This document shows positions 2 to 20,840 of a stretch of 32,000 nt of DNA, piece by piece; positions within the stretch are counted from its first letter, which is position 1; each line of letters starts with the position of its first letter. The DNA lies in the NCBI GenBank assembly GCA_900315615.1, contig OMZT01000027.1:5865-37864 (forward strand). The letters run 5' to 3'. This DNA is from an uncultured Veillonellaceae bacterium (GTDB lineage: Bacteria; Bacillota; Negativicutes; Selenomonadales; Selenomonadaceae). Both the position numbers and the translations under genes were made by a program. The notes under the pieces are model-generated. The model had not been told where the DNA came from, did not search any database, and saw only the letters and a program-made list of their open reading frames with translations.

Positions 2-64
2 GATCCGAGGATACGCGCGTTCATGAAGAGCGTAGAACTGCATGAAAAGGGGGAAAGGGAATGA
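2..64 (+). CDS. 3' end of upstream ABC-transporter ATPase gene (MlaF-like), partial
   Basis: Frame 2 is open from the window edge and reads ...DPRIRAFMKSVELHEKGERE*. Stop TGA 62-64 overlaps the next ATG (ATGA). A DPR[IV]RxF tail is typical of MlaF-type ATPases. Only 20 codons are visible. Confidence 0.35.
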   Translation, partial: DPRIRAFMKSVELHEKGERE

Positions 65-3170: not shown

Positions 3171-6100
3171 ATGAAGCACAGAAGGATCTACATAACTGCC
3201 ATAGTGGCAGCAGGCACGGTCTTGCTGTGCTTTTTTGCATTGCTGATGTATATGAGAAGTGCGGGATTTTCCGAGCAGGCTGCTAGGATCGTATCGGAAA
3301 AGGCGACGCAGACGCTTGAGACGCGCATTGAGCTTGGCAGCGTGAAGATTGACGACAATAAGGATATCGTCATCAATGATGCTGCGATATACGATAAGCA
3401 AGATAAGATCGTCGCAAAGATTCCTGAGGCTGTAGTAAAGCTTAGCTATATGGCAGCAATCAAGGGCGCATCTGCCGGCTCTGTGAGCGAGGTATCCGTG
3501 AAGAACCCTGAGGTCTGGCTAAGTGAACGGGATGATGGCAGCTGGAACGTGCAGGACCTCTTGAAGGAGAGCAGTGAGGAGAGCGGATTCCGCGGCAAGG
3601 TGAGGTTGAGCGGAGGTACCGTCACGGTTTCCATGCGTGGACAGACGCTGAAGCTGCGTCAGGTGGAAGGCACTGTCGATATGGCTGACAGCCCATCGGC
3701 AGATATAGATGTGGACTGCATGAGTATGTATTCTCCCATCCATGCTGAGGGAACCGTATCCTCTGATGTGCAGGATGTCAAAGTAACGATCGATGACGTG
3801 GGGATTGAGGATTACATGAAGTACCTCACGTTATTGCCGCCTCTGCCGGAGGGGATAGATATAAAGAGCGGCACGATAGATCACGCTGAGGCGTATATCC
3901 GTCATGATGGCGACGGACTAGCACTCAAAGGGCGTGCGGCTTTCCATGATGGCGCGGTGACCGCCATGGGAGTCGATATAGCTAAGCTGCAGGGACAGGC
4001 GAACTTCGACCAGTCGTCTGCCATGCTGTTCATCCATGCGGAGGCAGCTGGTGAGCCTGCGGCCATACATGGCAGGATAAGATGGGATGAGGAATCACCA
4101 AGGCTCGCCCTTGTGGCGGAGTCTGAGGGTTTTGATCCATCTAAGGTCATGGTAGATTTGCCGTTTGCAGGGAAGGTCTCCTTCCGTGCGAGCGTAGGCG
4201 GAACGCTCGATGCACCGGTCATCAGAGGCAAATTCGAGACGGCTGAGGCGGTCGCGTATGGGATTCCTCTGCAGGACGCGCGTGTGGATCTCACCTATGA
4301 TGGTATGGATGCCGATTTGCGCCATTTCGAGGCGGATATCCTCGGCGGTCATGCGGAGGGCGAGGGACGGCTACATATGGATGACCTCTCCTATGATCTG
4401 CACGTGAAGGCGGCAGGAATCGACATTGCAGGGCTGTCTGATCTGGTGGGGCAGGATATGGCCGGTACGGCAGATGGTGATATCGCACTCAATGGCGTCG
4501 GGACAGATACCGCTGGTATCTCGGTCTATGGCAGCGCTAGCATAAAGGATGGCAGGCTGAAGGGAGCCGAGTTCACACGGGCAGATGCATCATTCTTCGT
4601 GAGTGATGGTATGACCGTGATAGACGCGGCTAATGTCCTCTTCCCAGGTGGCGGAGAGATCGGCGCAACGGGGTCGATACGCAACGCAGATGAGATAGCA
4701 CTCGATTTCTATGGCGCGCATATAAACCTTCGTAATCTCGCGAACGCATTTCCAGACTATATAGATGCGGGCGGTATAGCGGATATCGATGGCTCGGTAC
4801 ATGGAAGCCTTTCCAATCCGATGGTAGAGGCCGATCTATCTGCAGTGGACGGGCATCTCTTCAAGCAGCCGTTTGAGCTTTTGCGTACGTCTGTGTCGGG
4901 CAGCCTTGATGGCATCGGTGTCGACTATTTCCAATTGGAGAATAACGGCAAAAATACATGGTATGTGAAGGGGTCTGTGGGCTTTACCAGAGATAAGAAG
5001 ATCGATCTACAGATAGATACGGTCGGTGCGCGTATGGAAGATATCGCGGCACTCGTAGCGCCAGATCAACCCATCACAGGTAATGTCGATAATATCATAA
5101 AGATAACGGGTACACTCGACAATCCGTCTGCTGTTGGATACGTCCATTTCTATCGTGGAAGCTATCGCGGCTATCTGCTTTCAGGTATGGATGGCGACTA
5201 TACATATAAGGATAAGGTCGTCACGGTGCAGGACTTCCATATTTTCTCACCGATTGTCGATATGGATCTGAATGGCACGATCGATCCGAAGTATGATATC
5301 AATATGAAAGTCGAGGCGCATGATATAGACCTGAAGCGCATGGCGTCAAGACTGCCATATCCTGTGGAGGGTCATGCAAAATTCTCAGGACTTATCGCGG
5401 GTAATGTGTCGGCACCTGTGTTCGATGGTAAACTGACTGGTGACAAGCTGACATTGAACGGTCAGGATATAGCGGATGTAAGGGGCGACGTGCATTACCG
5501 CGATCATATCGTCAGTGTCGAAGGCTTCACGTTCCACCAGAATGACGGTATCTTCGGGATGGACATGAAGGCAGGGCTCAATGATAAGAGCTTGTCCGGC
5601 AAGATCGATATCACGAACGGTGACGTACAAGCCATTGCCGCGTTCGCGGACCTTAAAAATGATATATTCACGGGCAGGCTTTCCGGTACGCTCGATATCG
5701 CGGGCACGATGGATAATCCAAAGGCACATCTCGAGGCCGTAGTGCCCGATGGCAAGCTCAGGGAGTATTCACTTACGGATGTTGCAGTAGATGCAGATTA
5801 TGAGGATGGAGTTTTGACGCTCAGCGAGTTCAGCGGACATCAGGATGATGGCTTCTTTATCGCTAGCGGTGTCATGGACAGTAACCGTGATATCGATGCC
5901 GAGGCTAATATCGAGAATGCTCCGCTGGGGCTTATTGCCGCATGTGCTGGCTCGAGTGCCAAGGTCAGCGGTACGGTCAATGCACAGGCAAAGATCAGTG
6001 GCAACCTCTCGAGCCCGCGTGCTGTGGTGACGCTGCAGGCGAAGAATGGAGGTGTCGGCACGGCGACGTTCGACAACCTCACGGGCGACTTGAACCTGGA

Positions 6101-7520
6101 TCATGGTGTTCTCGAGGTGCATGAGCTTCGTATGGAAAAGCAGGGGAAAGACAAGGTGTATAGCCTCAGTGCTGCGGGAACAGCACCTCTAAAGGCGATC
6201 ATGGCGAAGGATAACAACATAGGCAGCGCGTATGACCAGTTCAACCTGACGGTCAACCTCGAGAATGCTGACCTGGGACTTCTACCAGCACTTTCCCGGC
6301 AGGTAGACTGGGCGATGGGCCCTCTGACGGGCAAGTTGAACGTGACGGGCACGCTAGCAAGACCGCTCGTCAATGGCGAGGTTAAGCTGTCGGGTGGTGC
6401 CATGAAGCTGAAACTCCTGAAAGATCCAATCACGGATATGGAGTTTGATATAAAGGCAGCTGGAGACCGCCTAAACATAGAAAAGGGCTCGCTCAAAATG
6501 GGCGGCGGAAAGGCTGAACTGACTGGCAGCACGCTCTTTACGGGGAATGGTTTCAGCGGATATGATATCGCTCTAAAAGCCGATAAGCTCGGCGTGAACA
6601 GTACCGTATACAAGGGACCTCTTGATGGAGAGCTCAGACTGTCTGAAGGCGTTATAGGCAAGGGAAAGCCATGGGAGAAAACACTGCCAGAGCTTTCGGG
6701 GCATTTAGATATCAGCGATGTCACAATCTCAGTGCCAAGCCTGCCATCAGGCGATAGCGAGCTGCCGGATATCATTCTCGATTTTGATGTGAATCTCGGT
6801 AAGAAGGTACACCTTTACAGTGCGTCACTCTATGACATGTGGTTCAGCGGAGGCGTACATTTCGGAGGTACGACGAAGCATCCTAGGACCTCCGGAACCG
6901 TGAAGGTACAGAGGGGCTCTATCACCTACAACAACACGATATTCCGCGTGTCAGAGGGAGAAGCTTATTTCAATCAGGTTGATTCATTCCTGCCGAGCAT
7001 ACATTTCGTTTCATCGGCGCGCGTCAATAGGGTAAAGATATCCTTGACTGTTGACGGACCGCTTGAGCATATGGATTTCAAGCTTTCGTCGAGCCCATCG
7101 ATGAGTCAGACGGAGATCATACGCCTGCTGACATTCCATAACAGCAGCATGGATACGCTGGACTCGGAGCTGAATGCACAGGATCTCGTAAGCTTCGGTC
7201 TCAGGATGAGTGTCCTGAATGAACTGGAGAATTCGATGAGAGATCTTTTGCATCTCGATCAGTTCACGATATCAGGTGAGGCAGGTCATCTGTCTACGGA
7301 TAACAAGGGCGGCAGCAGACAGTCTCAAGACGTCGTCTACAGCGTTGAGATGGGTAAGTATATCGGCGATAAGGTCATGGTCAATTACAAACAGGCTTTC
7401 AATGATGATGAATACCGCGTCGGTATGATGTATGAGTTCAATGATAGATACAGTCTGATAGCCGGTCGGGATACGGAGAAGGGCTTCATGACGGGTATAC
7501 TTGCGAAGATAAGGTTCTAA
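3171..7520 (+). CDS. tamB: TamB / AsmA-like translocation-and-assembly-module protein
   Basis: 1449 aa. N-terminal signal anchor (IYITAIVAAGTVLLCFFALLMYM). The long beta-rich body carries recurring G-[TSN]-[LMV]-x-x-P motifs (GTLDAPVIRG, GSLSNPMVEA, GTLDNPSAVG, GNVSAPVFDG, GTMDNPKAHL, GNLSSPRAVV, GTLARPLVNG). DUF490-like C-terminus (...VMVNYKQAF..YRVGMMYEFNDRYSLIAGRD...). Confidence 0.85.
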   Translation: MKHRRIYITAIVAAGTVLLCFFALLMYMRSAGFSEQAARIVSEKATQTLETRIELGSVKIDDNKDIVINDAAIYDKQDKIVAKIPEAVVKLSYMAAIKGASAGSVSEVSVKNPEVWLSERDDGSWNVQDLLKESSEESGFRGKVRLSGGTVTVSMRGQTLKLRQVEGTVDMADSPSADIDVDCMSMYSPIHAEGTVSSDVQDVKVTIDDVGIEDYMKYLTLLPPLPEGIDIKSGTIDHAEAYIRHDGDGLALKGRAAFHDGAVTAMGVDIAKLQGQANFDQSSAMLFIHAEAAGEPAAIHGRIRWDEESPRLALVAESEGFDPSKVMVDLPFAGKVSFRASVGGTLDAPVIRGKFETAEAVAYGIPLQDARVDLTYDGMDADLRHFEADILGGHAEGEGRLHMDDLSYDLHVKAAGIDIAGLSDLVGQDMAGTADGDIALNGVGTDTAGISVYGSASIKDGRLKGAEFTRADASFFVSDGMTVIDAANVLFPGGGEIGATGSIRNADEIALDFYGAHINLRNLANAFPDYIDAGGIADIDGSVHGSLSNPMVEADLSAVDGHLFKQPFELLRTSVSGSLDGIGVDYFQLENNGKNTWYVKGSVGFTRDKKIDLQIDTVGARMEDIAALVAPDQPITGNVDNIIKITGTLDNPSAVGYVHFYRGSYRGYLLSGMDGDYTYKDKVVTVQDFHIFSPIVDMDLNGTIDPKYDINMKVEAHDIDLKRMASRLPYPVEGHAKFSGLIAGNVSAPVFDGKLTGDKLTLNGQDIADVRGDVHYRDHIVSVEGFTFHQNDGIFGMDMKAGLNDKSLSGKIDITNGDVQAIAAFADLKNDIFTGRLSGTLDIAGTMDNPKAHLEAVVPDGKLREYSLTDVAVDADYEDGVLTLSEFSGHQDDGFFIASGVMDSNRDIDAEANIENAPLGLIAACAGSSAKVSGTVNAQAKISGNLSSPRAVVTLQAKNGGVGTATFDNLTGDLNLDHGVLEVHELRMEKQGKDKVYSLSAAGTAPLKAIMAKDNNIGSAYDQFNLTVNLENADLGLLPALSRQVDWAMGPLTGKLNVTGTLARPLVNGEVKLSGGAMKLKLLKDPITDMEFDIKAAGDRLNIEKGSLKMGGGKAELTGSTLFTGNGFSGYDIALKADKLGVNSTVYKGPLDGELRLSEGVIGKGKPWEKTLPELSGHLDISDVTISVPSLPSGDSELPDIILDFDVNLGKKVHLYSASLYDMWFSGGVHFGGTTKHPRTSGTVKVQRGSITYNNTIFRVSEGEAYFNQVDSFLPSIHFVSSARVNRVKISLTVDGPLEHMDFKLSSSPSMSQTEIIRLLTFHNSSMDTLDSELNAQDLVSFGLRMSVLNELENSMRDLLHLDQFTISGEAGHLSTDNKGGSRQSQDVVYSVEMGKYIGDKVMVNYKQAFNDDEYRVGMMYEFNDRYSLIAGRDTEKGFMTGILAKIRF

Positions 7521-7521
7521 T

Positions 7522-8133
7522 ATGGATATAGCAGCATATATCAAAGAATTGAATAATATCAGTATGCTCAGCGAAACTGAGGAAAAGCAGCTTTGGGAGC
7601 AGTGCTGTGCGGGCGATGAGTCTGCCCGCCAACGTATCATAGAAGCATATCAGCCTTTGGTGTTCAAGACGGCTTTACCGTACAGGAGCATGGATCAGGT
7701 GATGGATATCATCCAGGAAGGAACTGTCGGGCTGATAGAGGCCGTTGACAAGTACAATCCGTCCAAAGGGGTGGCATTTAGCCTGTATGCTGTGCACCGC
7801 ATAAGAGGCCGTATGCTGGATTTCATCAGAAAGGAATGTGCGGGCACCGTATCGACTCTCAATTCGGAGGATGGTATCGAACCACAGGATACGGCTCCGG
7901 CTGTGCCTGAGCAGGCAGAGGAAAATTTTCTCGTTCAGACGGTGAAGTCTGCGATAGCCAGGCTCCCAATGAAGGAGAAAGCTGTGATAGAGGGCATATA
8001 TCTAAGGAGCCGTGAGGTATCTGATGTGGCTGAGAGCCTGGATATCAGCGCGTCGCATGTGTACCGCCTGCAGAAAAGCGGCGTGAGGCGCGTGCGCGGG
8101 ATGCTGTCCAGATTCATATATCAATGGAAGTAG
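7522..8133 (+). CDS. sigma-70-family RNA polymerase sigma factor, group-3 / FliA(sigma-28)-like, short region 3
   Basis: 203 aa. ATG 7522 lies 1 nt after the tamB stop (TAA 7518-7520). Region 2: IIEAYQPLVFKTA...DIIQEGTVGLIEAVDKYNPSKGVAFSLYAVHRIRGRMLDFIRKE. Region 4 HTH: LPMKEKAVIEGIYLRSREVSDVAESLDISASHVYRLQKSGVRRVRGML. Confidence 0.85.
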   Translation: MDIAAYIKELNNISMLSETEEKQLWEQCCAGDESARQRIIEAYQPLVFKTALPYRSMDQVMDIIQEGTVGLIEAVDKYNPSKGVAFSLYAVHRIRGRMLDFIRKECAGTVSTLNSEDGIEPQDTAPAVPEQAEENFLVQTVKSAIARLPMKEKAVIEGIYLRSREVSDVAESLDISASHVYRLQKSGVRRVRGMLSRFIYQWK

Positions 8134-8291: not shown

Positions 8292-8834
8292 ATGCATGGT
8301 GGCAGACGTAATCTTAGAAAGCATATACGAGCTGCAAGGGACTGGCTGAGCCGTGCGGATGACTCACTTGGCAGGGAGAATGATGCGGCGGGTGAGCTTC
8401 ATCTAATGCTGGCCCGTGCTGAGATGCAGCGCGCCAGCGAATCTACAAAACCGCGCACGTTCTTGCGGAGGGCTCTGCCGCTGTGTACGGCGGCAATCAT
8501 AGCGGCGGTGGGTTTTTCCATATGGCACCACGCGTCAACGCAGCCGATGACAGAGCCTCCTTTAGAGGTGCAGCCTGTAGAGACCACAGAGGTGCACGCT
8601 GCAGTACCGCCACAGGAGCAGGCAGTGACGAAAGACGTGTCAAATGAAAAATACGTTCCTGTAGTGGCGAAAAAACAGGAAACAGTGTATAATAAGGAAT
8701 CAGTGTTGGATGAGAAGGCACAGCAAGCTCAGCAGCCTGCTGAGACCAGACGTGACACGGCAAAGCCAGCTCCTCCTGACGAGGCGGTACAGAAGCTCAT
8801 GCGTCAGGCGGGCAGGACACTTAAAGCACAGTAA
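8292..8834 (+). CDS. hypothetical single-pass membrane protein (anti-sigma-like topology)
   Basis: 180 aa with a strong SD (aagggggga) 5-6 nt before the ATG. The first ~60 aa are basic and helical. One TM helix (LPLCTAAIIAAVGFSIW). A P/E/Q/V/A-rich low-complexity C-terminal half follows. I recognise no family motif. Confidence 0.6.
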   Translation: MHGGRRNLRKHIRAARDWLSRADDSLGRENDAAGELHLMLARAEMQRASESTKPRTFLRRALPLCTAAIIAAVGFSIWHHASTQPMTEPPLEVQPVETTEVHAAVPPQEQAVTKDVSNEKYVPVVAKKQETVYNKESVLDEKAQQAQQPAETRRDTAKPAPPDEAVQKLMRQAGRTLKAQ

Positions 8835-8903: not shown

Positions 8904-11282
8904 TTGAGTACTAGGAGATACAGGGCATTCGTGGCAGCAGCGATCGTTGTTGGGGTTGCAACGGCTGCTGGCACAGCAGTGTATGCTGAGGGCGCGGTCA
9001 TAGCACCAGCACTGCCTCAGGATATGACGATAACGTCGGGAACCGCATCTTCATCTGGGAGCAGTGCGGAAGCCAAGAAGGGGAAAGACGCTGGACAGAC
9101 CTCTCAGACAGAGAGTAATGGAGAAAAGCCCACCGATAACACCACGGCACAGAGTGGTCAGACGGTCTTAGCACCGGCACTGCCGCAGGGCATGTCCATA
9201 AAGGGCGGCACGGCGTCACAGTCTGATATACTCACTGTAGACCCTAAGGCTCCTGATATAACAAACCCGAATGCGGAGGAAAAGCCCGCAGAGACAGCAC
9301 AAAAGATGGAGGCTGCACCAGCTGCAACGGAAGCAGCACCAACTGCACCGTCGCCAGCTGCAACAGAAGCTGCACCAGCTGCAACGGCACCAGCACCGGC
9401 TGCAACGGAAGCGGCACCAGAGAGTGCACCATCATCAGGGACACCGTCTGCTGGGGCTCAGTTACCTGCACCGACTCTGCCGTCACCATCAATGCCAGGA
9501 TCGTCATCGACAGATTTCGATTTCGGCACACCAAAGTCAGAGCGTGGCACCAGTGTGTCCGGCGTCGATGCCGACCCTAGAATGGTGGAATGGAATTCCA
9601 AACGCCCTGAGGAGCAGAAGATACATGAGCGTCTTCAGAAGATAGAGGGGAAGACAATCGTTGACGTCGTCTGTGAAGGTGCAAGCGAGTCTACGCTTGC
9701 TACCGCGAAAGCAGCACTGACAGAGCGTGCAGGGGACAAGTTCAGCGTGGATGTCATGGAGAACGACCGCTCTGCGATATATTCGACAGGCTATTTCTAC
9801 GATCTCTATCCGAGCTTTGAAGAGGTGCCAGAAGGCGTTGTCGTGACCTTCCATCTGCTGGAGAATCCTATACTGAAGTCTGTTGATATCGCCGGCAATA
9901 CAGTTGTGAAGACAGAGACACTCAGGTCGCTGCTCACGGTGAAGACTGGAGCAATCATGAACAGCGCCGAGCTGCAGCGCAATATCAGGGATATGCAGCA
10001 GGAATACCGCAAGGATGGCTATATACTTGCAAAAGTAAGTGACCTGCGTATGGATATGGATGGCTCCTTGCATATAAGGATCAATGAGGGAACTCTCGAG
10101 GGCTATAAGATAAAGGGCAACAAGAAGACGAAGGATTATGTTATCCTGCGTGAGATGAGGCAGAAAGTCGGAGAGCCGTTCAACGCGACGAAAGCGCGTC
10201 GAAGCATGCAGCGCGTGTATAACTTGGGATTCTTCGAAGATGTCAACATGAAGCTCAATCCTGGTATAGAGCCGAATGCCGTCGTGCTCGAGATAGATAT
10301 CAAGGAAAAATCAACGGGTACATTCGGTGTAGGTGCAGGCTATAGCAGTGAAGATGGCATCATCGGTATGTTGAACCTCGGTGATACGAACTTCAGGGGC
10401 ACTGGCGACGCCGTGAATATCATGTACGAGATGAGCGGCGACGATGATGATGCACATGGATATACATTCTCATATCGTCATCCGTATATGGATAAGCATG
10501 AGACGACGGGTACGTTCCGCATATATAACCGTACCTATCAGTATGATGACTACGATTCGGACGGCGACTTCATCGAGGAATACATGAGGAAGTACAAGGG
10601 CGGCGAGATAACGGTCGCAAGGCCTGTGAGTGAGTATTCGACGAATGTCATAACGCTCAGGAACCGCGATGACAAGTACGTCAAGTACGAGGAAGACGAG
10701 GGCGGCATAGACCGCAGCGGCGAAAACTACAGGTGGTGGCGTGAGAAGAACTTCGGCCTCACGAGAAGTGTCACGCTTGCACATATCACGGATAACCGCG
10801 ATAATATATATTTCCCGACGATGGGCGGCCGTATAGAACTTTCGACTGAGATAGCGGGCTTCGGAGGAGATTTTGACTTCCAGAAGTACGTGATAGAGGA
10901 TCAGCGCTATTTCAAGGTCGGTCATGCGCAGGTCATAGCTACGCGCGCACAGGCCGGCTATGGTCACGGCAGTATCTCTGAGTCCAACCAGTTCCGTATC
11001 GGTGGTCAGGACACGATCAGAGGCTATCGTGAGCAACAGTTCCGCGGCAATAAGATGCTGCTGGGAACCGTTGAGTACCGCTTCCCGATAACAGGAAAGG
11101 TGCAGGGCGCGCTCTTCACAGATTGGGGTAATGCGTGGGAGGATAAAGGCGCTCCAGACGAGGTGCATGGCAGCTTCGGCGCAGGTCTTTCATTGAATAC
11201 GCCGCTCGGTCCTATCCGTATAGATTGGGGTCGTGGCTCGCAGGGTAGCCGTGTGCACTTCATGGTTGGTAATTCGTTCTGA
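8904..11282 (+). CDS. bamA: BamA/Omp85 outer membrane protein assembly factor with long disordered N-terminal extension
   Basis: 792 aa. TTG start with SD gggagga at 8888-8894. Signal peptide (...AAGTAVYA/EG). About 200 aa are low-complexity. Three POTRA-sized units span aa ~248-468. The Omp85 barrel starts at KSTGTFGVGAGYSSEDG and contains RIGGQDTIRGY. It ends ...RVHFMVGNSF. Confidence 0.9.
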   Translation: MSTRRYRAFVAAAIVVGVATAAGTAVYAEGAVIAPALPQDMTITSGTASSSGSSAEAKKGKDAGQTSQTESNGEKPTDNTTAQSGQTVLAPALPQGMSIKGGTASQSDILTVDPKAPDITNPNAEEKPAETAQKMEAAPAATEAAPTAPSPAATEAAPAATAPAPAATEAAPESAPSSGTPSAGAQLPAPTLPSPSMPGSSSTDFDFGTPKSERGTSVSGVDADPRMVEWNSKRPEEQKIHERLQKIEGKTIVDVVCEGASESTLATAKAALTERAGDKFSVDVMENDRSAIYSTGYFYDLYPSFEEVPEGVVVTFHLLENPILKSVDIAGNTVVKTETLRSLLTVKTGAIMNSAELQRNIRDMQQEYRKDGYILAKVSDLRMDMDGSLHIRINEGTLEGYKIKGNKKTKDYVILREMRQKVGEPFNATKARRSMQRVYNLGFFEDVNMKLNPGIEPNAVVLEIDIKEKSTGTFGVGAGYSSEDGIIGMLNLGDTNFRGTGDAVNIMYEMSGDDDDAHGYTFSYRHPYMDKHETTGTFRIYNRTYQYDDYDSDGDFIEEYMRKYKGGEITVARPVSEYSTNVITLRNRDDKYVKYEEDEGGIDRSGENYRWWREKNFGLTRSVTLAHITDNRDNIYFPTMGGRIELSTEIAGFGGDFDFQKYVIEDQRYFKVGHAQVIATRAQAGYGHGSISESNQFRIGGQDTIRGYREQQFRGNKMLLGTVEYRFPITGKVQGALFTDWGNAWEDKGAPDEVHGSFGAGLSLNTPLGPIRIDWGRGSQGSRVHFMVGNSF
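9312..9428 (+). repeat. imperfect in-frame tandem repeat encoding (P)AATEAAP units inside bamA
   Basis: The DNA repeats gcaccagctgcaacggaagc / gcaccagctgcaacggcacc / ggctgcaacggaagcggcacc. The protein reads AAPAATEAAPTAPSPAATEAAPAATAPAPAATEAAPES. Confidence 0.7.
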
Positions 11283-11298
11283 TCATATCAACTTTTCA

Positions 11299-11333
11299 AG
11301 GACTGCAGGAGAATACCCTGCGGTCCTTTTGTT
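11299..11333 (+). terminator. rho-independent terminator after bamA
   Basis: An 11-bp stem aggactgcagg / cctgcggtcct (one G-U pair) with a 7-nt loop, followed by ttttgtt. Confidence 0.6.
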
Positions 11334-11369
11334 CAACATATACGAATCCTTTGCTGGAGGTGAGGTTGC

Positions 11370-12662
11370 TTGAGGTTTTTAGAGAGATACGCTGCTATAG
11401 CTTTGATCATGGCCGTTCTCATGCTTGAGGTACATACGGTGCAGGCGGCATCCGAAGAACGGATAGAGAGCATTGATGTATCGGTAAGTGCAGGCAGCCT
11501 TCCACCTGCAGTTGGAAAGCGCATGGAGGACAGTATACGCGTGATCGCTTCGCAGCTGATGGATGGAAAGACCATCAAGGCTGCTGAGGAATCTAAGGAG
11601 CATGACGCATCTCTCATACATGAAGTGTTTGATAAGCTGCTCGTGGGATATACGGTCGAGGATGTAAAAGTCGTGCCGGGCAGGACGGCTTCGATACAGG
11701 TATCTCTCATACCGTGGGACTATATCATACAAAGGACTGTGGTATCGGTAGATGTCGAGGGAATGCCGGATGAGGTACGTACCATGGTGCTTCATGACGC
11801 GAAAGGGCTGGAAATGGTGTTCGATTCCGTCATGACGGGATTGCCAACGGCCGCTGCGGACTGGACCAATGGCGTATTGAAACATAATGTCGACAGCTTC
11901 ATGAACGAGCATTTGCCAGAATTCAGGGCTGACTTTGAGGTAGAGCCGGATGAGATAACGAAGGTTCATGTGGTGCTTTATCCGAGACTTCCAGTAGTGA
12001 GGACGACGGATCTGTCGATGCGCTCCGATACCGTACCGAATCTCTTCCTTGTGAATCATAGGAAACTGATGGAGGAGAGGACTCATCTCTTCCTCGGGGT
12101 ACCGTCTGCTTTCGTTGGGCGTCATAGGCAGGAGATAGAGAAAATGCTTGCAGAGACGCTTGACTCCAGGAGAGAGTTCATGGCAGCGGGAATACATACG
12201 AAGGCTTCTATCGAGCCCGGCGAGTATATGACGATCATGCTCAGGTCTGATACCGCGAAGTATCGCTGGAGGATAGAGGGCTATGCGGATGTTTCGCGTG
12301 ACGGAAGCGGTGACCGCGATACGCGGGTTCGTATGTATGCGGGCGGAATGCTCAGCAGCAGGGATATGCTATATGCGAGGCTCGATTTCTATCCGCAAGC
12401 GGTCGATTGGAAATTTGCCGCAGGGTATGAGAGACGGCTCAGGAAATGGCTTTTTGCGGATTTCGTGTTCGATGCAGAGTATGGCAAGGCTGAGCTTGGC
12501 ATGAGGGCGATACTTTCACCATTTTGGCAGCTTAGATATGAATACCGTTATGCAGATCATATGGGTGAGGGAGCATTACGCTACAAGCTGCATGATTTCT
12601 TGAGCCTGGAGTATGCTGCTGATCCTGATGGACGCTGGCTGCGTGTTATCGGTGATTTCTGA
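11370..12662 (+). CDS. hypothetical secreted protein with OMP-type C-terminal beta region (unknown family)
   Basis: 430 aa. TTG start with SD ggaggtgagg at 11356-11365. Signal peptide (AAIALIMAVLMLEVHTVQA/AS). The N-terminal domain is ~290 aa of mixed alpha/beta character. The last ~135 aa have aromatic-alternating strands (YRWRIEGYADV, VRMYAGGML, LYARLDFYP, WKFAAGYERR, LFADFVFDAEY, WQLRYEYRYA, ALRYKLHDFLSLEYA) and end RWLRVIGDF. Confidence 0.65.
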   Translation: MRFLERYAAIALIMAVLMLEVHTVQAASEERIESIDVSVSAGSLPPAVGKRMEDSIRVIASQLMDGKTIKAAEESKEHDASLIHEVFDKLLVGYTVEDVKVVPGRTASIQVSLIPWDYIIQRTVVSVDVEGMPDEVRTMVLHDAKGLEMVFDSVMTGLPTAAADWTNGVLKHNVDSFMNEHLPEFRADFEVEPDEITKVHVVLYPRLPVVRTTDLSMRSDTVPNLFLVNHRKLMEERTHLFLGVPSAFVGRHRQEIEKMLAETLDSRREFMAAGIHTKASIEPGEYMTIMLRSDTAKYRWRIEGYADVSRDGSGDRDTRVRMYAGGMLSSRDMLYARLDFYPQAVDWKFAAGYERRLRKWLFADFVFDAEYGKAELGMRAILSPFWQLRYEYRYADHMGEGALRYKLHDFLSLEYAADPDGRWLRVIGDF

Positions 12663-12797: not shown

Positions 12798-13499
12798 TTG
12801 AAGGGGATGAAAATACTGGTTATGGAACTTTGCGGCGCGGATCTCATGGGATTGCCCTTGTTCAAGGATTTGTCTGAAAAGGAGATCGATCAATTCTTGC
12901 AGGCTACGGGTGTGCAGATAAAAACGTATGGAAAAAAAGAGCGCATCCTGAGGGCTTACGAGAAAAACAACTGTATCGGTGTCATCGTAGAGGGCGAGGC
13001 ATTTGTCATAACAGAGGACAGGTTCGGCAATGAGTCGATCAGTCATCAACTGCAGCGTGGCTCGATGTTCGGCAGCACATCGGCCATTCTGCCAGTGACA
13101 AATATCAGCTCAATCGAGACGATTACGCCGACTACGGCTATCCTCGTGACCTATCATGATCTTATTACTGTGGGCCCGCGGTTAGGACGTATTCATGGCG
13201 TTGTCATGAAGAACCTCCTCGAGGCATTCTCGCGAAAGAATTTCCTTATGATGCAAAAAGTCGAGCTGCTCACACAGAAATCACTGCGCGAGCGGATTAT
13301 CCTCTATCTCCTTCAGCAAGAAAAACAAGAGCGTGGAGAAAATGGGAAGATACCGGTGCCAGGACGCATACGTCTCGCAAAGATACTTGAGTGCAATCGC
13401 AGTGCACTGACGCGCGAGGTCAGATCCATGGAAGAGAAGGGAATCCTGATATGCGGAGAGGACTGGATGCAGCTCGTCAAGGATAAGTTGAATGACTGA
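12798..13499 (+). CDS. Crp/Fnr-family transcriptional regulator
   Basis: cNMP-binding-like beta-roll (LPLFKDLSEKEIDQFL...IGVIVEGEAFVI...GSMFG). C-terminal HTH (RIRLAKILECNRSALTREVRSMEEKGIL). There is no FNR-type N-terminal Cys cluster. The start is ambiguous: TTG 12798, ATG 12807 or ATG 12822. Confidence 0.85.
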   Translation: MKGMKILVMELCGADLMGLPLFKDLSEKEIDQFLQATGVQIKTYGKKERILRAYEKNNCIGVIVEGEAFVITEDRFGNESISHQLQRGSMFGSTSAILPVTNISSIETITPTTAILVTYHDLITVGPRLGRIHGVVMKNLLEAFSRKNFLMMQKVELLTQKSLRERIILYLLQQEKQERGENGKIPVPGRIRLAKILECNRSALTREVRSMEEKGILICGEDWMQLVKDKLND

Positions 13500-13535
13500 T
13501 TCGTTTCGGCGTAATCGGTCATCGAGGAGAAGTGT

Positions 13536-14156
13536 ATGATCGAGATTACCTTTGAAGATGTATGCGCGGCCTATGGAGAGCATGTGATATTTTCCCATTT
13601 ATCGAAAAGGGTCATCGGAGGCCACATAACGGCTGTCACGGGTGAGAATGGCAGCGGGAAATCGACACTCCTGCGTCTGGCAGGGCATTTACTTCATGCA
13701 CAGGTGGGGCATGTCTTAGTGCGTGTCGATGGCAAGGAGATTCGTCAATCTGAGCTGCGCTCACATATCGCGATGGTGACACCAGAGATGAAGCTATACG
13801 ATCAGCTGACGGCGCGTGAAAATATGGATTTCTTGCTTAGACTTCGTGGCGTCGCACTAACGGATGCGATGTATAAGGATTGTATCCGCCATGTCGGGCT
13901 TTCTGAGGAGGAACTAGAGGGTAAATATATAGGCACATTTTCGACGGGTATGCGGCAGCGCCTAAAGCTTGCCGTCCTATTCCTTTCGGGGGCGGATATA
14001 TGGCTCCTTGATGAGCCCGGGGCGAACCTTGATGCGGCTGGACGTGGAATGCTCCTTCAGGCGTCGCGTCAGGCGGCCGATATGGGGCGTATCGTCCTCA
14101 TTGCGACGAATGATAACGAAGAGGAGGCGGCAGCCGATGATACCATCCGCCTTTGA
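13536..14156 (+). CDS. ccmA: heme exporter ATP-binding protein CcmA
   Basis: 206 aa. Walker A GENGSGKST, signature-like FSTGMRQRLKLA, Walker B IWLLDEP. Operon context with ccmBCEF. Confidence 0.85.
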   Translation: MIEITFEDVCAAYGEHVIFSHLSKRVIGGHITAVTGENGSGKSTLLRLAGHLLHAQVGHVLVRVDGKEIRQSELRSHIAMVTPEMKLYDQLTARENMDFLLRLRGVALTDAMYKDCIRHVGLSEEELEGKYIGTFSTGMRQRLKLAVLFLSGADIWLLDEPGANLDAAGRGMLLQASRQAADMGRIVLIATNDNEEEAAADDTIRL

Positions 14157-14808
14157 GGGAGCGCGCATTGTCATGTGCAAGGAGCTGCGCGTAAGCTTTA
14201 GGCAGCAGGCGGGCTGGTGCGCGATGCTCATGTTCGCACTCACGACGCTTGCCTGCGTGAGCCTGAGTCTCTCTGGCGGCATTTTAGAGCCTAAGCTGCA
14301 GGCAGCTCTCCTTTGGGTGATCTTGTTTTTCTCCTCTATGGCGGGTGCTGATCGCGGATTTGCCGATGAGGATATGGCGGGGACGCTTCCCACGCTTCGG
14401 CTCTATGGAGCTTCGCAAAGTGTGCTCTGGGGAAAAGTAGGATATACGTTCTGTCTGCTGCTAATACTTGCTGCTTTCTTAGTGCCGCTCTACCTGATTT
14501 TTCTCGATGTGATGATCTTAAGGCCGCTATGGCTGCTGGCAGCCATTATCGTTGGGATGGCAGGCCTCTCGATTGCAGGTACGCTTCTCGGTGCACTTGC
14601 CACGGGTGCGAGCGTGCGCGGCGGAATATTTACCGTACTCATGCTGCCAGTGATATTGCCGGTATTCCTTCCGGGCATCGCACTTACAGACATGGCATTT
14701 GGTGGTGAAGGTGGCTCAGGCTCATATCTTTTAGGAATGATACTTTACGACCTCATGCTAGGTGTGGCGGCATCATTGCTTTTCGATTATCTCTGGTATG
14801 ATGATTGA
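14137..14808 (+). CDS. ccmB: heme exporter membrane protein CcmB
   Basis: The ORF-track frame starts at 13969, but that part overlaps ccmA. I trimmed it to ATG 14137, which has SD gaggagg at 14121-14127. The KELRVSFRQ N-terminus resembles E. coli CcmB LELRVAFR. The protein is polytopic and hydrophobic. Confidence 0.8.
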   Translation: MIPSAFEGARIVMCKELRVSFRQQAGWCAMLMFALTTLACVSLSLSGGILEPKLQAALLWVILFFSSMAGADRGFADEDMAGTLPTLRLYGASQSVLWGKVGYTFCLLLILAAFLVPLYLIFLDVMILRPLWLLAAIIVGMAGLSIAGTLLGALATGASVRGGIFTVLMLPVILPVFLPGIALTDMAFGGEGGSGSYLLGMILYDLMLGVAASLLFDYLWYDD

Positions 14809-14845
14809 TTGTCTATGGGAATAAACTGAAAAGAGAGGGACATCT

Positions 14846-15499
14846 ATGCCTGTGATTCATTACATTGCTTTTGCCCTGACAGCAGCCGTGATCTTCACGG
14901 TGGTCTTTGTCGTACCGCCAGCAGAGGGATTAGGAAACTACGTGCGGCTTGCCTTTTTTCATATCCCAGTGGCATGGGTGTCAGTGCTCGCATTCCTGAT
15001 GAGTGCGTGGTGGGGGCAGAAGGTCCTGCGTCATCACGACATGCTGGCAGATGCGAAGTCTGCGGCTTCGGCAAGGCTCGGCTTTATCTTTACGGTGCTT
15101 GCGACAGTCAGCGGTGCAGTCTTTTCTAAGCTGACCTGGGGCAGCTACTGGAACTGGGATCCGCGACAGACGACGATTTTCGTGCTGCTTCTTATCTACG
15201 GTGCTTATCTTACGCTGCGTGCAGCGATACCTACGCAGCGGCGTGCAAGGGTCTCTGCCGTATATGCGCTGTTCTCGTTCTTGACGGTGCCTTTCCTCGT
15301 GTTCATCATTCCGAGACTTTATTTTTCACTGCACCCACAGCCCGTGATAAATGGTAGCGGTCATATCGAGATGGATCCTGTTTTTCTCTGGACACTGATT
15401 GCAGCACTCCTGGATATGACAATCATCTATTGGGGTCTGCTGTACCATATCGTATGTGGTCATAGACATAAAGATGGGAAGGATGGTGAAACCATATGA
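14846..15499 (+). CDS. ccmC: heme export/handling protein CcmC
   Basis: 217 aa. WWD-type Trp-rich motif WGSYWNWDPRQT, flanked by conserved His in FFHIPVAW and YFSLHPQP. Confidence 0.9.
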   Translation: MPVIHYIAFALTAAVIFTVVFVVPPAEGLGNYVRLAFFHIPVAWVSVLAFLMSAWWGQKVLRHHDMLADAKSAASARLGFIFTVLATVSGAVFSKLTWGSYWNWDPRQTTIFVLLLIYGAYLTLRAAIPTQRRARVSAVYALFSFLTVPFLVFIIPRLYFSLHPQPVINGSGHIEMDPVFLWTLIAALLDMTIIYWGLLYHIVCGHRHKDGKDGETI

Positions 15500-15879
15500 G
15501 CAAGAAAGGGAAATTGATGCTGCTTGTCCTTCTTGTCGTCGGATTTGTCGGCTATGCGGCATGGAGTTTTTCGGATTCTGTGACGCCATATGTGGGAGTC
15601 GACGAAGCAATGAAGTCGAATGGCAATGTGCAGGTCAAGGGGCTGCTCGATAAGTCCGCCGCGCCTTCGCATATGGAGGGAGAAGATTTCGTCTTTACAT
15701 TAAAGGATCAGGATACAGGCTCGACATTGCCGGTCCGTTATCACGGCACGAAACCGGATCAGTTCGATGAGGCTTACCATATCGTAGCTATCGGGAAATA
15801 TCGGGATGGAGAGTTCATAGCAAGCAAGCTCCTGATCAAATGCCCGTCCAAGTATGAAAAAGAAAAGGGGAAAGTCTGA
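15496..15879 (+). CDS. ccmE: heme chaperone CcmE, CxxxY variant
   Basis: 127 aa. The ATG overlaps the ccmC stop (ATGA). N-terminal TM anchor followed by an OB-fold-like body. The C-terminal KCPSKY sits where canonical CcmE has H-x-x-x-Y. Confidence 0.85.
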   Translation: MSKKGKLMLLVLLVVGFVGYAAWSFSDSVTPYVGVDEAMKSNGNVQVKGLLDKSAAPSHMEGEDFVFTLKDQDTGSTLPVRYHGTKPDQFDEAYHIVAIGKYRDGEFIASKLLIKCPSKYEKEKGKV

Positions 15880-17981: not shown

Positions 17982-18016
17982 GCATATTTTATAGGTGATA
18001 GTAGGAGCTTTCATAG

Positions 18017-18052
18017 TCCGCTTGCTTTTTAAGGAGCAGGCGGATTTTTTTT
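18017..18052 (+). terminator. rho-independent terminator after ccmF
   Basis: A 10-bp stem tccgcttgct / agcaggcgga (one G-U pair) with an 8-nt loop, followed by T8 at 18045-18052. Confidence 0.8.
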
Positions 18053-18070
18053 GTTGAAAAATTTTTTATA

Positions 18071-18112
18071 GTTGCTTCAGCAACATCATGAAAAATTAAT
18101 GAATGCTATAAT
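18071..18112 (+). promoter_or_regulatory. nrfHA promoter: perfect 5-4-5 palindrome at -41.5 plus consensus -10
   Basis: GTTGC-TTCA-GCAAC at 18071-18084 and TATAAT at 18107-18112. The inferred +1 is ~18119, placing the palindrome centre at -41.5 (class II activator geometry). No -35 hexamer is present. Confidence 0.55.
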
Positions 18113-18186
18113 AAGATAAATCGAGATAATACATCATTGAGACTATGGGGGAAAGGCATGATATCCTTGAGAGGAGGGAAGCAGGA

Positions 18187-18678
18187 ATGGAATGGAAATC
18201 CTTGATTCATAAGCACACGCTGGCTTGTCTGGCTGGTGGATTCGTCATCGGCTTGGCAGTTTGTGGCGTAGGATCGGCGGCCATGTCATTCTCCGGTTCT
18301 GCAACATTCTGTGGTAATGCATGCCATGCGATGCAGAGTGAAGGCTGGACGTTTGCCGAGTCCTCACATCGAAATCAGGAGTGTGTGGAATGCCACCTGC
18401 CCCATGACAATATGGCTATTTACCTTATTGAGAAGGGGCGGACTGGTATGGTGGATACCTACCATGAGGTTCTGCGTGATTATCCGGCACACATCAAGCT
18501 GTCCGCTGAGGGCAAGAAGACAGTTAATGCCAACTGCCTCCGCTGCCATAAGGCCACCGTGGGGAAGGTACATGCTGACATCGGAGTGGACATGGACAGC
18601 GGCGGTGACTGCATGAAATGCCACAGCAGTGTCGCTCATGGCGCGAATCACATAGAGAGGGGGATAAAAGTTGAGTAA
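18187..18678 (+). CDS. nrfH: NrfH, membrane-anchored tetraheme quinol dehydrogenase (NapC/NirT family)
   Basis: The ORF opens at 18145, but ATG 18187 has the best SD (gaggaggg at 18171-18178). TM anchor LACLAGGFVIGLAVCGV. Heme sites CGNACHAM (CX3CH), CVECH, CLRCH and CMKCH. Confidence 0.9.
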   Translation: MEWKSLIHKHTLACLAGGFVIGLAVCGVGSAAMSFSGSATFCGNACHAMQSEGWTFAESSHRNQECVECHLPHDNMAIYLIEKGRTGMVDTYHEVLRDYPAHIKLSAEGKKTVNANCLRCHKATVGKVHADIGVDMDSGGDCMKCHSSVAHGANHIERGIKVE

Positions 18679-20297: not shown

Positions 20298-20768
20298 ATG
20301 GTAAAATTGCAGAAGAAGACGGTAAAGATTGCAAGCGTCCTCATCGCACTTGTATTTATCGGCAGCGTAGTTGCACTGGGTGTATCTGAGTATGCTTCGT
20401 CAGGCACTGCATTCGCTGCATCCTCCAACGTTGGAGTTATTGATTATCGTCAGGTCATGAGCCAGCATCCAGATCTTGCAAATGCGAATACACAGATGCA
20501 GACTGAAGTAGAGAATGCCAAGAAGGATTTCGATGAGAAGTCCAAGAACATGAGTGAACAGGAGAAGGCATCCTACTATCAGCAGACACAGCAGCGTCTG
20601 CAGCAGAAGCAGCAGGAGCTTATAGAGCCGATCCAGAAGAATATCGAAGATACCGTCAAGAAGGTCGCTGAGCAGAAGGGCCTTTCGGTTGTTATCGATA
20701 AGAATGCAGTCGTGTACGGCGGTCAGGACATCACACAGGACGTCGTAAACAAGGTTGCAAAGAAGTAA
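20298..20768 (+). CDS. skp: Skp/OmpH-family periplasmic chaperone (paralogue 1)
   Basis: 156 aa with SD aaaggag. N-terminal signal peptide or anchor. OmpH signature layout: VGVIDYRQVM..., a Q/E/K-rich coiled arm, then ...LSVVIDKNAVVYGGQDITQDVVNKV. Confidence 0.8.
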   Translation: MVKLQKKTVKIASVLIALVFIGSVVALGVSEYASSGTAFAASSNVGVIDYRQVMSQHPDLANANTQMQTEVENAKKDFDEKSKNMSEQEKASYYQQTQQRLQQKQQELIEPIQKNIEDTVKKVAEQKGLSVVIDKNAVVYGGQDITQDVVNKVAKK

Positions 20769-20789: not shown

Positions 20790-20824
20790 AGTACCGAGCC
20801 AGTAACTGTGCTCGGTACTTTTCT
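20790..20824 (+). terminator. terminator/attenuator-like hairpin between skp paralogues 1 and 2
   Basis: A perfect 10-bp stem agtaccgagc / gctcggtact with a 10-nt loop, followed by ttttct. Confidence 0.5.
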
Positions 20825-20840
20825 GAAAGGGGACGTATCC

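What the first reader, a model, noticed from the sequence alone, without database searches (positions are those of the whole stretch)
11370..12662. Uncharacterised 430-aa secreted protein with OMP-type C-terminus immediately downstream of bamA
The ORF has a good SD and a clear Sec signal peptide (…HTVQA/AS). Its ~290-aa N-terminal domain matches no family I recognise. The ~135-aa C-terminal segment has short strands with alternating aromatic residues and ends in ...RWLRVIGDF, a terminal Phe as in BAM substrates. That size fits a small (~8-10 strand) barrel. It is separated from bamA by a terminator-like hairpin (11299-11333) and only 36 nt. Expression is therefore probably by read-through, meaning sub-stoichiometric co-expression with BamA. 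The window has TamB but no TamA, and BamA but no BamB-E. A periplasmic domain fused to a small barrel next to bamA could therefore be a lineage-specific BAM/TAM accessory component.
Basis: inference. Interest (0 to 1): 0.7.

Follow-up and report, generated by a model that had tools for sequence, protein, structure and literature searches.

The report
SonA: small POTRA-barrel protein beside bamA
The gene after bamA encodes this bacterium's copy of SonA, an outer-membrane protein (three POTRA-like periplasmic repeats on a ten-stranded barrel) that was first described in February 2026 and whose function is still unknown.

Summary
The ORF is real: 11370-12662, + strand, TTG start, 430 aa, with a Shine-Dalgarno site and a Sec-type signal peptide. 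It has more than 470 full-length homologues. No Pfam or NCBIfam model matches it. AlphaFold2 (pLDDT 88.7) predicts three beta-alpha-alpha-beta-beta repeats followed by ten strands. The best PDB matches of the whole model are TamA and BamA. The C-terminal 139 residues modelled alone (pLDDT 93.2) best match a designed 10-stranded transmembrane barrel.

The protein is the orthologue of Acetonema longum SonA (F7NM22): BLASTP 26% identity, E 8e-54, over the full length. The gene order is also the same: mlaD-tolC-tamB-sigma-sonB-bamA-sonA. SonA was published in Nat Commun 2026 (PMC13018214) as a 10-stranded barrel with three POTRA domains in a conserved sonB-bamA-sonA-skp1 cluster of Negativicutes.

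The proposed BAM/TAM accessory role remains untested. In A. longum, cross-linking co-immunoprecipitation of BamA did not recover SonA. The terminator-like hairpin exists but is not conserved, so the read-through argument is weak.

Small additions from this work:
- Homologues with the same synteny occur in MAGs labelled Armatimonadota and Firmicutes.
- The three repeats are an internal triplication.
- NCBI's name "acylphosphatase" is unsupported.

The parts
11370..12662 (+). sonA orthologue, 430 aa, TTG start, stop codon included
   Evidence: The ORF is listed. BLASTP against A. longum SonA (F7NM22 = P0152) gives 26% identity and E 8e-54 over 407 aa. The family profile hits P0152 at E 5.2e-86.
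11356..11363 (+). Shine-Dalgarno sequence GGAGGTGA, 6 nt upstream of the TTG start
   Evidence: Read directly from the sequence.
11370..11447 (+). Sec-type signal peptide, residues 1-26, predicted cleavage after VQA
   Evidence: Read from the sequence. Residues 2-21 are helical in the model. An equivalent leader is seen across the alignment. There is no lipobox.
11457..11723 (+). POTRA-like repeat 1 (residues ~30-118; beta-alpha-alpha-beta-beta)
   Evidence: DSSP on the AF2 model. hhalign of repeat 1 against repeat 2 gives Prob 97.5, E 5.6e-12.
11724..11993 (+). POTRA-like repeat 2 (residues ~119-208), carrying the conserved GLPxAAxDW and HLPEFRADF motifs
11994..12257 (+). POTRA-like repeat 3 (residues ~209-296), carrying the conserved MRS..P and GVPxAF motifs
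   Evidence: hhalign gives Prob 95-96 against repeats 1 and 2.
12258..12659 (+). C-terminal 10-stranded beta-barrel (residues ~297-430) ending in the conserved W-L-R-V-I-G-D-F motif
   Evidence: The barrel-only AF2 model has pLDDT 93.2, pTM 0.81 and ten strands. Its best PDB match is the designed 10-stranded transmembrane barrel 8uzl (TM 0.56), followed by Ail, PcoB and KdgM. The strands are amphipathic. The C-terminal motif is conserved.
11298..11334 (+). Terminator-like hairpin (12-bp stem, 7-nt loop) plus TTGTTC tail in the bamA-sonA spacer
   Evidence: Folding gives -20.3 kcal/mol for the hairpin and z = -2.8 for the whole spacer. The terminator scan did not report it. It is not conserved in relatives.
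8904..11282 (+). bamA (792 aa; POTRA x3 plus Omp85 barrel, with a long low-complexity N-terminal extension)
   Evidence: Pfam PF01103 and PF07244, and TIGR03303.
8292..8834 (+). sonB orthologue (180 aa; N-terminal ~60 aa, one hydrophobic helix, then a Pro/Glu/Gln-rich tail)
   Evidence: BLASTP against the A. longum 186-aa protein in the SonB position gives E 2e-15. It is conserved upstream of bamA in the loci examined.
7522..8133 (+). Sigma-70 family (ECF-sized) sigma factor between tamB and sonB
   Evidence: Pfam Sigma70_r2 and r4, and TIGR02937. It is conserved in this position in all lineages examined.
3171..7520 (+). tamB (1449 aa)
   Evidence: Pfam PF04357.
20298..20768 (+). skp1 (OmpH family). 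In relatives this gene directly follows sonA; here it lies 7.6 kb away.
   Evidence: Pfam PF03938, E 1.2e-19. Synteny.

Best explanation
The ORF is the Selenomonadaceae orthologue of SonA, the 'small version of BamA' described in Acetonema longum in 2026.

Shown here by computation:
- It has full-length homology to A. longum SonA.
- It sits in the same position, between bamA and the skp genes, in the conserved outer-membrane biogenesis cluster mlaD-tolC-tamB-sigma-sonB-bamA-sonA-(skp)-lpxD.
- It has a type-I signal peptide.
- It has three mutually homologous ~88-aa repeats with POTRA topology.
- It has a compact C-terminal 10-stranded amphipathic barrel with a conserved aromatic or hydrophobic C-terminal motif.

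Inferred mechanism:
- The protein is exported by Sec.
- The 134-residue barrel acts as an outer-membrane anchor rather than a channel or insertase. Its inward faces are charged, its loops are minimal, and there is no Omp85 loop-6 motif.
- The three POTRA-like repeats hang in the periplasm as a docking scaffold for the outer-membrane biogenesis machinery encoded around it (BamA, TamB, Skp). On this view it is a barrel-anchored substitute for accessory lipoproteins in organisms reported to lack the Lol pathway.

The identity as SonA is firm. The docking role is a hypothesis.
For: Homology:
- P0152 is UniRef F7NM22, i.e. SonA.
- The family profile hits it at E 5.2e-86 across the whole length.
- Pairwise BLASTP gives E 8e-54.

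Synteny:
- The A. longum locus L084 has MlaD-TolC-TamB-sigma-186aa-BamA-SonA-Skp-319aa-Skp-LpxD.
- The window has the same order.
- About 70 Selenomonadaceae loci have TamB-sigma-SonB-BamA-SonA-h374-LpxD.
- Members at 17-25% identity still sit between BamA and Skp.

Structure:
- The AF2 model has pLDDT 88.7 and shows three beta-alpha-alpha-beta-beta units plus 10 strands.
- Foldseek's top hits are TamA (E 1.8e-11), BamA, Toc75 and Anabaena Omp85 POTRA1-3.
- The barrel alone has pLDDT 93.2 and best matches a designed 10-stranded transmembrane barrel at TM 0.56.
- The strands are amphipathic.
- The three repeats are an internal triplication.

Published experiments on the A. longum orthologue (PMC13018214):
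- It is predicted to be an outer-membrane protein.
- It is co-expressed with BamA and SonB.
- It became protease-protected when incubated with liposomes at 30 C.
Against: Against the proposed role (not the identity):
- Cross-linking co-immunoprecipitation with anti-BamA serum in A. longum recovered no SonA.
- SonA and SonB are reported absent from V. parvula and A. fermentans although these keep BamA and TamB. SonA is therefore not an obligate partner of either.
- There is no sequence-level relationship to POTRA or Omp85 families. None of 41 members hits those Pfam models, and hhalign against BamA gives Prob below 1%. 'POTRA' is a predicted-fold statement only.
- Global TM-scores to TamA and BamA are low, 0.14-0.25.
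Confidence: 0.85

Rival explanations
1. SonA is specifically the outer-membrane partner of TamB. On this view it is a functional analogue of proteobacterial TamA, which also has three POTRA domains. It would receive the C-terminus of the TamB bridge for phospholipid or outer-membrane protein delivery, rather than working with BamA.
For: The best structural match of the whole model is TamA (8us1, E 1.8e-11). SonA has exactly three POTRA-like units. tamB lies in the same conserved cluster in Negativicutes and in the distant MAG loci L082 and L085. No TamA was reported in diderm Firmicutes (PMC5007114). The authors of PMC13018214 also mention possible interaction with TamB.
Against: TamB is retained in V. 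parvula and A. fermentans, which are reported to lack SonA. In loci L081 and L086, BamA-SonA-Skp are adjacent with no tamB called immediately upstream. A 10-stranded barrel with a charged interior has no obvious lateral gate to receive a TamB strand (inference). No interaction data exist.
Confidence: 0.2
2. SonA is a self-inserting pioneer outer-membrane protein. Its job would be to seed conversion of the outer spore membrane into an outer membrane during germination, as in the published model for A. longum.
For: SonA became protease-protected with liposomes at 30 C and is upregulated with BamA during germination in A. longum (PMC13018214).
Against: The paper itself reports that presence or absence of SonA homologues does not correlate with sporulation ability. 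From my own knowledge, not tested here, Selenomonadaceae such as Selenomonas and Mitsuokella are non-sporulating, yet the gene is conserved in ~80 genomes of that family. Spontaneous liposome insertion is a general property of small barrels (stated).
Confidence: 0.1
3. SonA is a miniature Omp85-type translocase or insertase in its own right. It would move or fold a dedicated substrate through or beside its barrel.
For: The overall architecture, POTRA repeats followed by a barrel, mirrors BamA, TamA and TpsB.
Against: The barrel has 10 strands in 134 residues, not 16. Its nearest structures are minimal anchors or small barrels such as a designed TMB10 and Ail. The inward-facing residues are mostly Arg, Glu, Asp and Tyr. 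There is no conserved RG[YF] loop-6 motif and no Omp85 Pfam match.
Confidence: 0.05
4. It is an acylphosphatase enzyme, as NCBI names several Selenomonas and Mitsuokella homologues.
For: Only the database name attached to homologues P0007, P0017, P0019, P0027, P0053, P0080 and P0094.
Against: No acylphosphatase model matches the protein in Pfam or NCBIfam at E<=1, nor any of 41 members in Pfam. The protein carries a signal peptide and a membrane barrel. The A. longum, Megasphaera and Azotosporobacter homologues are named 'hypothetical protein'.
Confidence: 0.01

Closest known systems
SonA (Acetonema longum F7NM22; Beskrovnaya et al., Nat Commun 2026, PMC13018214)
   Same: Full-length homologue at 26% identity, E 8e-54. 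Similar size (430 vs 426 aa). Sec signal peptide. Three POTRA-like repeats plus a 10-stranded barrel. Same position after bamA, with sonB before bamA and tamB plus a sigma factor upstream.
   Different: In this window a 7.6-kb block (Crp-family regulator, ccm genes, nrfHA) separates sonA from skp1. A terminator-like hairpin sits between bamA and sonA. From my own knowledge, the host family does not sporulate.
TamA / BamA (Omp85 superfamily)
   Same: A predicted N-terminal array of beta-alpha-alpha-beta-beta units followed by a C-terminal outer-membrane barrel. There are three units, as in TamA and in diderm-Firmicute BamA. These proteins are the best Foldseek hits (E 1e-11 to 1e-8). The gene sits in the same operon-like cluster.
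   Different: The barrel has 10 strands, not 16. There is no loop-6 RG[YF] motif. There is no Pfam POTRA or Omp85 match and no profile-profile similarity to the neighbouring BamA. Global TM-scores are only 0.14-0.25.
Small 8-10-stranded outer-membrane anchors (Ail/OmpX, designed TMB10 barrels; barrel-anchored MlaD of diderm Firmicutes)
   Same: A compact barrel with minimal loops. The best structural match of the isolated C-terminal domain is a designed TMB10 barrel (TM 0.56). As in the long MlaD encoded in this same window, a periplasmic module is tethered to the outer membrane by a small barrel rather than by a lipid anchor.
   Different: The periplasmic module here is a POTRA-like triplet, not a coiled coil or an MCE domain. 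No sequence similarity was detected.
BamB-E accessory lipoproteins of Proteobacteria
   Same: A possible functional analogy: a periplasm-facing, outer-membrane-anchored partner encoded beside bamA.
   Different: It is not a lipoprotein (type-I signal peptide, no lipobox). The folds are unrelated. No physical association with BamA was detected in A. longum.

Membership tests
SonA family (PMC13018214) | Full-length sequence homology to A. longum F7NM22 | tested here: met
   P0152 is UniRef100_F7NM22. The A1 profile hits it at E 5.2e-86 over profile positions 12-435. BLASTP gives 26% identity, E 8e-54, aligning residues 32-430 with 27-426.
SonA family (PMC13018214) | Three N-terminal beta-alpha-alpha-beta-beta (POTRA-type) units followed by a ten-stranded barrel | tested here: met
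   The AF2 model has pLDDT 88.7 with units at 34-115, 122-205 and 212-295, then 10 strands at 298-429. The barrel alone has pLDDT 93.2 and 10 strands, and best matches a 10-stranded transmembrane barrel.
SonA family (PMC13018214) | Synteny sonB-bamA-sonA-skp1 | tested here: met
   sonB (8292-8834; E 2e-15 to the A. longum protein), bamA and sonA are contiguous. skp1 is present but displaced to 20298 by an inserted Crp/ccm/nrf block. In relatives, h374 and LpxD follow sonA with a gap that fits one skp gene. Skp directly follows SonA in A. longum, Megasphaera and the distant loci.
SonA family (PMC13018214) | Sec/SPI signal peptide and outer-membrane localisation | tested here: inconclusive
   A signal-peptide-like N-terminus with VQA/AS and no lipobox is seen, and residues 2-21 are helical. 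No signal-peptide predictor was available, and localisation cannot be tested in silico.
Omp85 superfamily (BamA/TamA/TpsB) | POTRA domains recognisable by family models (PF07244, PF08479) | tested here: not met
   None of 41 members matches at E<=1. hhalign of each repeat against a BamA alignment gives Prob below 1%.
Omp85 superfamily (BamA/TamA/TpsB) | 16-stranded Omp85 barrel (PF01103) with a conserved loop-6 RG[YF] motif | tested here: not met
   Only ten strands in 134 residues. No PF01103 match. RG[YF] is absent from the window protein and found at non-equivalent positions in only 5 of 41 members.
Omp85 superfamily (BamA/TamA/TpsB) | Fold-level resemblance of the whole protein | tested here: inconclusive
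BAM accessory lipoproteins (BamB-E) | Lipobox with +1 Cys; physical association with BamA | tested here: not met
   There is no lipobox in the window protein. Association is not testable here. The published co-immunoprecipitation in A. longum was negative.
Acylphosphatase (NCBI name of homologues) | Match to an acylphosphatase family model | tested here: not met
   No such hit in Pfam or NCBIfam at E<=1.

The most novel reading that the evidence does not exclude
SonA is an ancient, Lol-independent outer-membrane docking subunit of the TamB/BamA/Skp machinery. It would be the functional counterpart of TamA or of the Bam lipoproteins. Its range would extend beyond Negativicutes to other diderm lineages such as the MAGs labelled Armatimonadota and Firmicutes, all of which keep the module TamB-sigma-SonB-BamA-SonA-Skp-LpxD. 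If so, it would be the missing outer-membrane partner that explains how TamB and BamA work without TamA or BamB-E in these bacteria.
Probability: 0.25. Interest if true: 0.75.

Novelty: already known. Interest (0 to 1): 0.3.

Why it matters
Diderm Firmicutes build an LPS outer membrane with BamA and TamB but without TamA or BamB-E, and A. longum is reported to lack the Lol pathway (PMC5007114, PMC13018214). SonA is the most conspicuous conserved unknown inside that gene cluster, so its function bears on how a minimal, possibly ancestral, outer-membrane assembly machine works.

The family, its architecture and its synteny were published in February 2026, so this window adds no new kind of object. 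What this analysis adds is modest:
- The gene is kept in ~80 genomes of Selenomonadaceae.
- The same module is kept in far more distant MAGs.
- The POTRA-like region is an internal triplication with no detectable sequence link to BamA.
- The public annotation 'acylphosphatase' is wrong.

Tried and rejected
1. Pfam and NCBIfam scans of the protein and of 41 family members gave no meaningful family. The only near-hit, talAB transaldolase at E 0.01 and 15 bits, is noise.
2. A PDB sequence-profile search returned only polyubiquitin chains (best E 2e-6). Single ubiquitins score about 10 bits, so the multi-copy chains inflate the score. I judged this spurious and unrelated to the predicted fold.
3. 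hhalign of the SonA profile against the window BamA, against a 12-sequence BamA alignment, and repeat by repeat found no similarity (Prob below 1%). A recent duplication of bamA is therefore not supported.
4. A genome scan with the divergent alignment A2 failed because it had no conserved stretch. A1 was used instead and returned only Selenomonadaceae.
5. Two further homologue searches with divergent profiles added little. One relisted the close hits. The other found only four proteins.
7. The paper's supplementary tables are not held. The link to SonA was made instead through the UniRef accession of a cluster representative.
8. The idea that the hairpin is a conserved attenuator was rejected on comparative grounds.
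Full report
**Observation.** The ORF at 11370-12662 (+) exists. It starts with TTG and encodes 430 aa. GGAGGTGA lies at 11356-11363, 6 nt upstream of the start. The N-terminus (MRFLERYAAIALIMAVLMLEVHTVQA/AS) looks like a type-I Sec signal peptide. It is modelled as a helix at residues 2-21 and has no lipobox. The bamA-sonA spacer holds a 12-bp hairpin at 11298-11328 (-20.3 kcal/mol) followed by TTGTTC. The terminator scan did not report it; the eight bases after the stem hold 4 T against the scan's threshold of 5. No promoter-like site lies between the hairpin and the start codon. The protein ends in ...RWLRVIGDF.

**Is it a real, conserved gene?** Yes. A word-indexed search found 470 homologues at E<=1e-3, all about 410-470 aa. 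An exhaustive profile search of 1.84 billion cluster representatives found 333 at E<=1e-3, and the complete ones are nearly all 413-451 aa matched end to end. Neither Pfam nor NCBIfam recognises the protein. None of 41 diverse members hits POTRA, Omp85 or any other family convincingly. NCBI names several Selenomonas and Mitsuokella homologues 'acylphosphatase'. No acylphosphatase model matches, so that name is unsupported.

**Structure.**
- AlphaFold2 on a 35-sequence alignment gave a confident model (pLDDT 88.7, pTM 0.71).
- It shows a signal helix and three units of strand, helices, strand, strand at residues 34-115, 122-205 and 212-295. This is the beta-alpha-alpha-beta-beta order of POTRA domains, with a short extra helix.
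- Ten consecutive strands follow at residues 298-429.
- Foldseek against the PDB ranks TamA first (8us1, E 1.8e-11). Dozens of BamA entries, Toc75, CdiB and Anabaena Omp85 POTRA1-3 follow, all at probability about 1.0 but with TM-scores of only 0.14-0.25. That pattern is expected if the domains match but the barrel size and inter-domain angles differ.
- The C-terminal 139 residues were modelled alone to test the barrel claim. This gave pLDDT 93.2, pTM 0.81 and again ten strands.
- The best PDB match of that model is a designed 10-stranded transmembrane barrel (8uzl, TM 0.56, rmsd 4.3 A). Ail, PcoB and KdgM come next.
- Each predicted strand has one hydrophobic or aromatic face and one strongly polar face rich in Arg, Glu, Asp and Tyr. 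This fits a lipid-embedded barrel with a filled polar lumen.
- The C-terminal motif [WFY][LIVF]R[LVIF][IV][GA]x[FL] recurs in members down to 17% identity.
- The three N-terminal units are homologous to one another (hhalign Prob 95-97.5%, E 2e-8 to 6e-12). The periplasmic region is therefore an internal triplication.
- No profile-level similarity to the neighbouring BamA, its POTRA domains or its barrel could be detected.

**Context.** The window carries, in order:
- a long MlaD (61-1347), TolC (1473-3098) and TamB (3171-7520);
- an ECF-sized sigma-70 factor (7522-8133) and a 180-aa protein with no family (8292-8834);
- BamA (8904-11282) and the target;
- a Crp-family regulator, ccm genes and nrfHA (12798-19951);
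- Skp (20298-20768), a 374-aa protein with no family (20808-21932) and a second Skp (21967-22401);
- LpxD, a lipid A acyltransferase, LpxC, LpxA, LpxI, LpxB and an MsbA-like ABC exporter.

In 80 Selenomonadaceae genome loci, covering Selenomonas, Mitsuokella, Megamonas, Schwartzia, Anaerovibrio and Propionispira, the order TamB-sigma-180aa-BamA-target-374aa-LpxD is essentially invariant wherever the contig is long enough. The Crp/ccm/nrf block in this window is thus a local insertion; only L022 shows a ccmA match downstream.

**Identification.** A literature search found Beskrovnaya et al., Nat Commun 2026 (PMC13018214). They describe two previously uncharacterised proteins in the A. longum bamA operon. 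[quoted passage not shown] SonB (F7NM24) is the other. The arrangement sonB-bamA-sonA-skp1 is syntenic across 36 Negativicutes, and SonA and SonB are missing only from V. parvula and A. fermentans.

One of the cluster representatives found here, P0152, is UniRef100_F7NM22. The family profile hits it at E 5.2e-86 over its whole length. BLASTP of the window protein against it gives 26% identity and E 8e-54 over 407 residues. The A. longum locus has the same gene order as the window. The 180-aa protein upstream of bamA matches the A. longum protein in the SonB position (E 2e-15). The target is therefore the SonA orthologue.

**What is known and unknown about function.** In A. longum, SonA is co-expressed with BamA and SonB and is upregulated at germination. 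It becomes protease-protected when incubated with liposomes at 30 C. The authors suggest a role in protein transport or an interaction with TamB, and a role in seeding the outer membrane on germinating spores. However, cross-linking co-immunoprecipitation with anti-BamA serum did not recover SonA. The authors also note that presence of SonA does not correlate with sporulation. From my own knowledge, not tested here, the Selenomonadaceae that carry the gene do not form spores.

My best mechanistic reading is inference, not demonstration. The small barrel is an anchor, and the POTRA-like triplet is a periplasmic docking scaffold for the neighbouring BamA, TamB and Skp machinery. A barrel anchor makes sense because A. 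longum is reported to lack the Lol pathway that would deliver accessory lipoproteins. Rival readings are scored in the report sections: a TamA-like partner for TamB, a germination-specific pioneer, an autonomous mini-translocase, and an acylphosphatase.

**The hairpin.** In 77 related loci the bamA-sonA spacer is mostly 50 nt or less and has no stable hairpin. Ten loci have a hairpin of -15 kcal/mol or stronger, and only two of those have a T-rich tail (start codons were chosen heuristically, so spacer lengths are approximate). The hairpin in this window is therefore a local feature. It may attenuate transcription here, but it is not evidence for a family-wide sub-stoichiometric design.

**Beyond the published range.** Members at 17-25% identity keep the same neighbourhood.
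- Two MAGs labelled Armatimonadota (L082, L083) carry S55 peptidase-TamB-sigma-232aa-BamA-SonA-Skp-371aa-Skp-LpxD-LpxC-FabZ-LpxA-LpxB-LptC.
- A 'Firmicutes bacterium' MAG (L085) has the same core.
- Two unlabelled assemblies (L081, L086) carry BamA-SonA-Skp-~350aa-LpxD.
- Megasphaera, in the Veillonellaceae, also has the gene in the canonical position.

The true taxonomy of these MAGs was not verified.

**Verdict.** The object, however, is an already described family (SonA) whose function remains open. Novelty: already known. Interest is modest at 0.3. It would rise substantially only if SonA were shown to be the missing outer-membrane partner of TamB or BamA.

Noticed in passing
window 8292-8834 (+), with 7522-8133 (+): The SonB orthologue does not look like an outer-membrane lipoprotein. 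It has a ~60-aa charged helical N-terminus, one hydrophobic helix (about residues 61-83) and a Pro/Glu/Gln-rich tail. No lipobox is conserved between the window and A. longum sequences. It always follows an ECF-sized sigma-70 factor, which is the classic position and topology of a membrane anti-sigma factor. A sigma/anti-sigma pair controlling the bamA-sonA cluster is a testable idea.
   Followed up: partly
window 12798-19951: A ~7.2-kb block (Crp-family regulator, ccmA-like ABC ATPase, ccmC, ccmF, nrfH, nrfA) is inserted between sonA and skp1. This breaks the sonA-skp adjacency seen in A. longum, Megasphaera and the distant loci. Of 80 related loci only L022 shows a ccmA match downstream of sonA.
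   Followed up: partly
window 20808-21932 (+): A 374-aa protein with no Pfam match lies between two skp (OmpH) genes. An equivalent 312-371-aa gene occupies the same slot in every lineage examined (A. longum, Megasphaera, the Armatimonadota-labelled and Firmicutes-labelled MAGs), sometimes with weak or faint OmpH hits. It is another conserved unknown of the outer-membrane cluster.
   Followed up: no
window 8904-9650 (+), N-terminus of BamA: BamA here is 792 aa, against 567-599 aa in A. longum and the distant MAGs. The difference is a ~250-aa low-complexity Ala/Pro/Thr/Glu-rich N-terminal extension. It contains two copies of a motif like APALPQ[DG]M[TS]I..GTAS. Megasphaera BamA (766 aa) is also long.
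   Followed up: no
homologues P0007, P0017, P0019, P0027, P0053, P0080, P0094: NCBI and UniRef name these SonA orthologues 'acylphosphatase'. No acylphosphatase model matches any family member, so this looks like a propagated misannotation.
   Followed up: yes
L082/L083 359-2164 and L085 1-704: A peptidase S55 (SpoIVB-like) gene sits immediately upstream of tamB in the distant MAG loci. In A. longum a peptidase S55 protein (F7NM31) was one of only two proteins co-eluting with BamA (PMC13018214). This is a possible conserved link that nobody has explained.
   Followed up: no
P0263 (representative search): A 2002-aa protein matches profile positions 272-320 of SonA (end of repeat 3 and first barrel strand) in 31 separate stretches, at E 3e-26. 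It could be a repetitive protein built from a similar beta-hairpin unit, or a compositional artefact.
   Followed up: no
window 61-1347 (+): The MlaD here is 428 aa, the long form described for V. parvula and A. longum. The A. longum counterpart is annotated with a periplasmic needle and a 10-stranded outer-membrane barrel. It is a second example in this window of a periplasmic module tethered by a small barrel.
   Followed up: no
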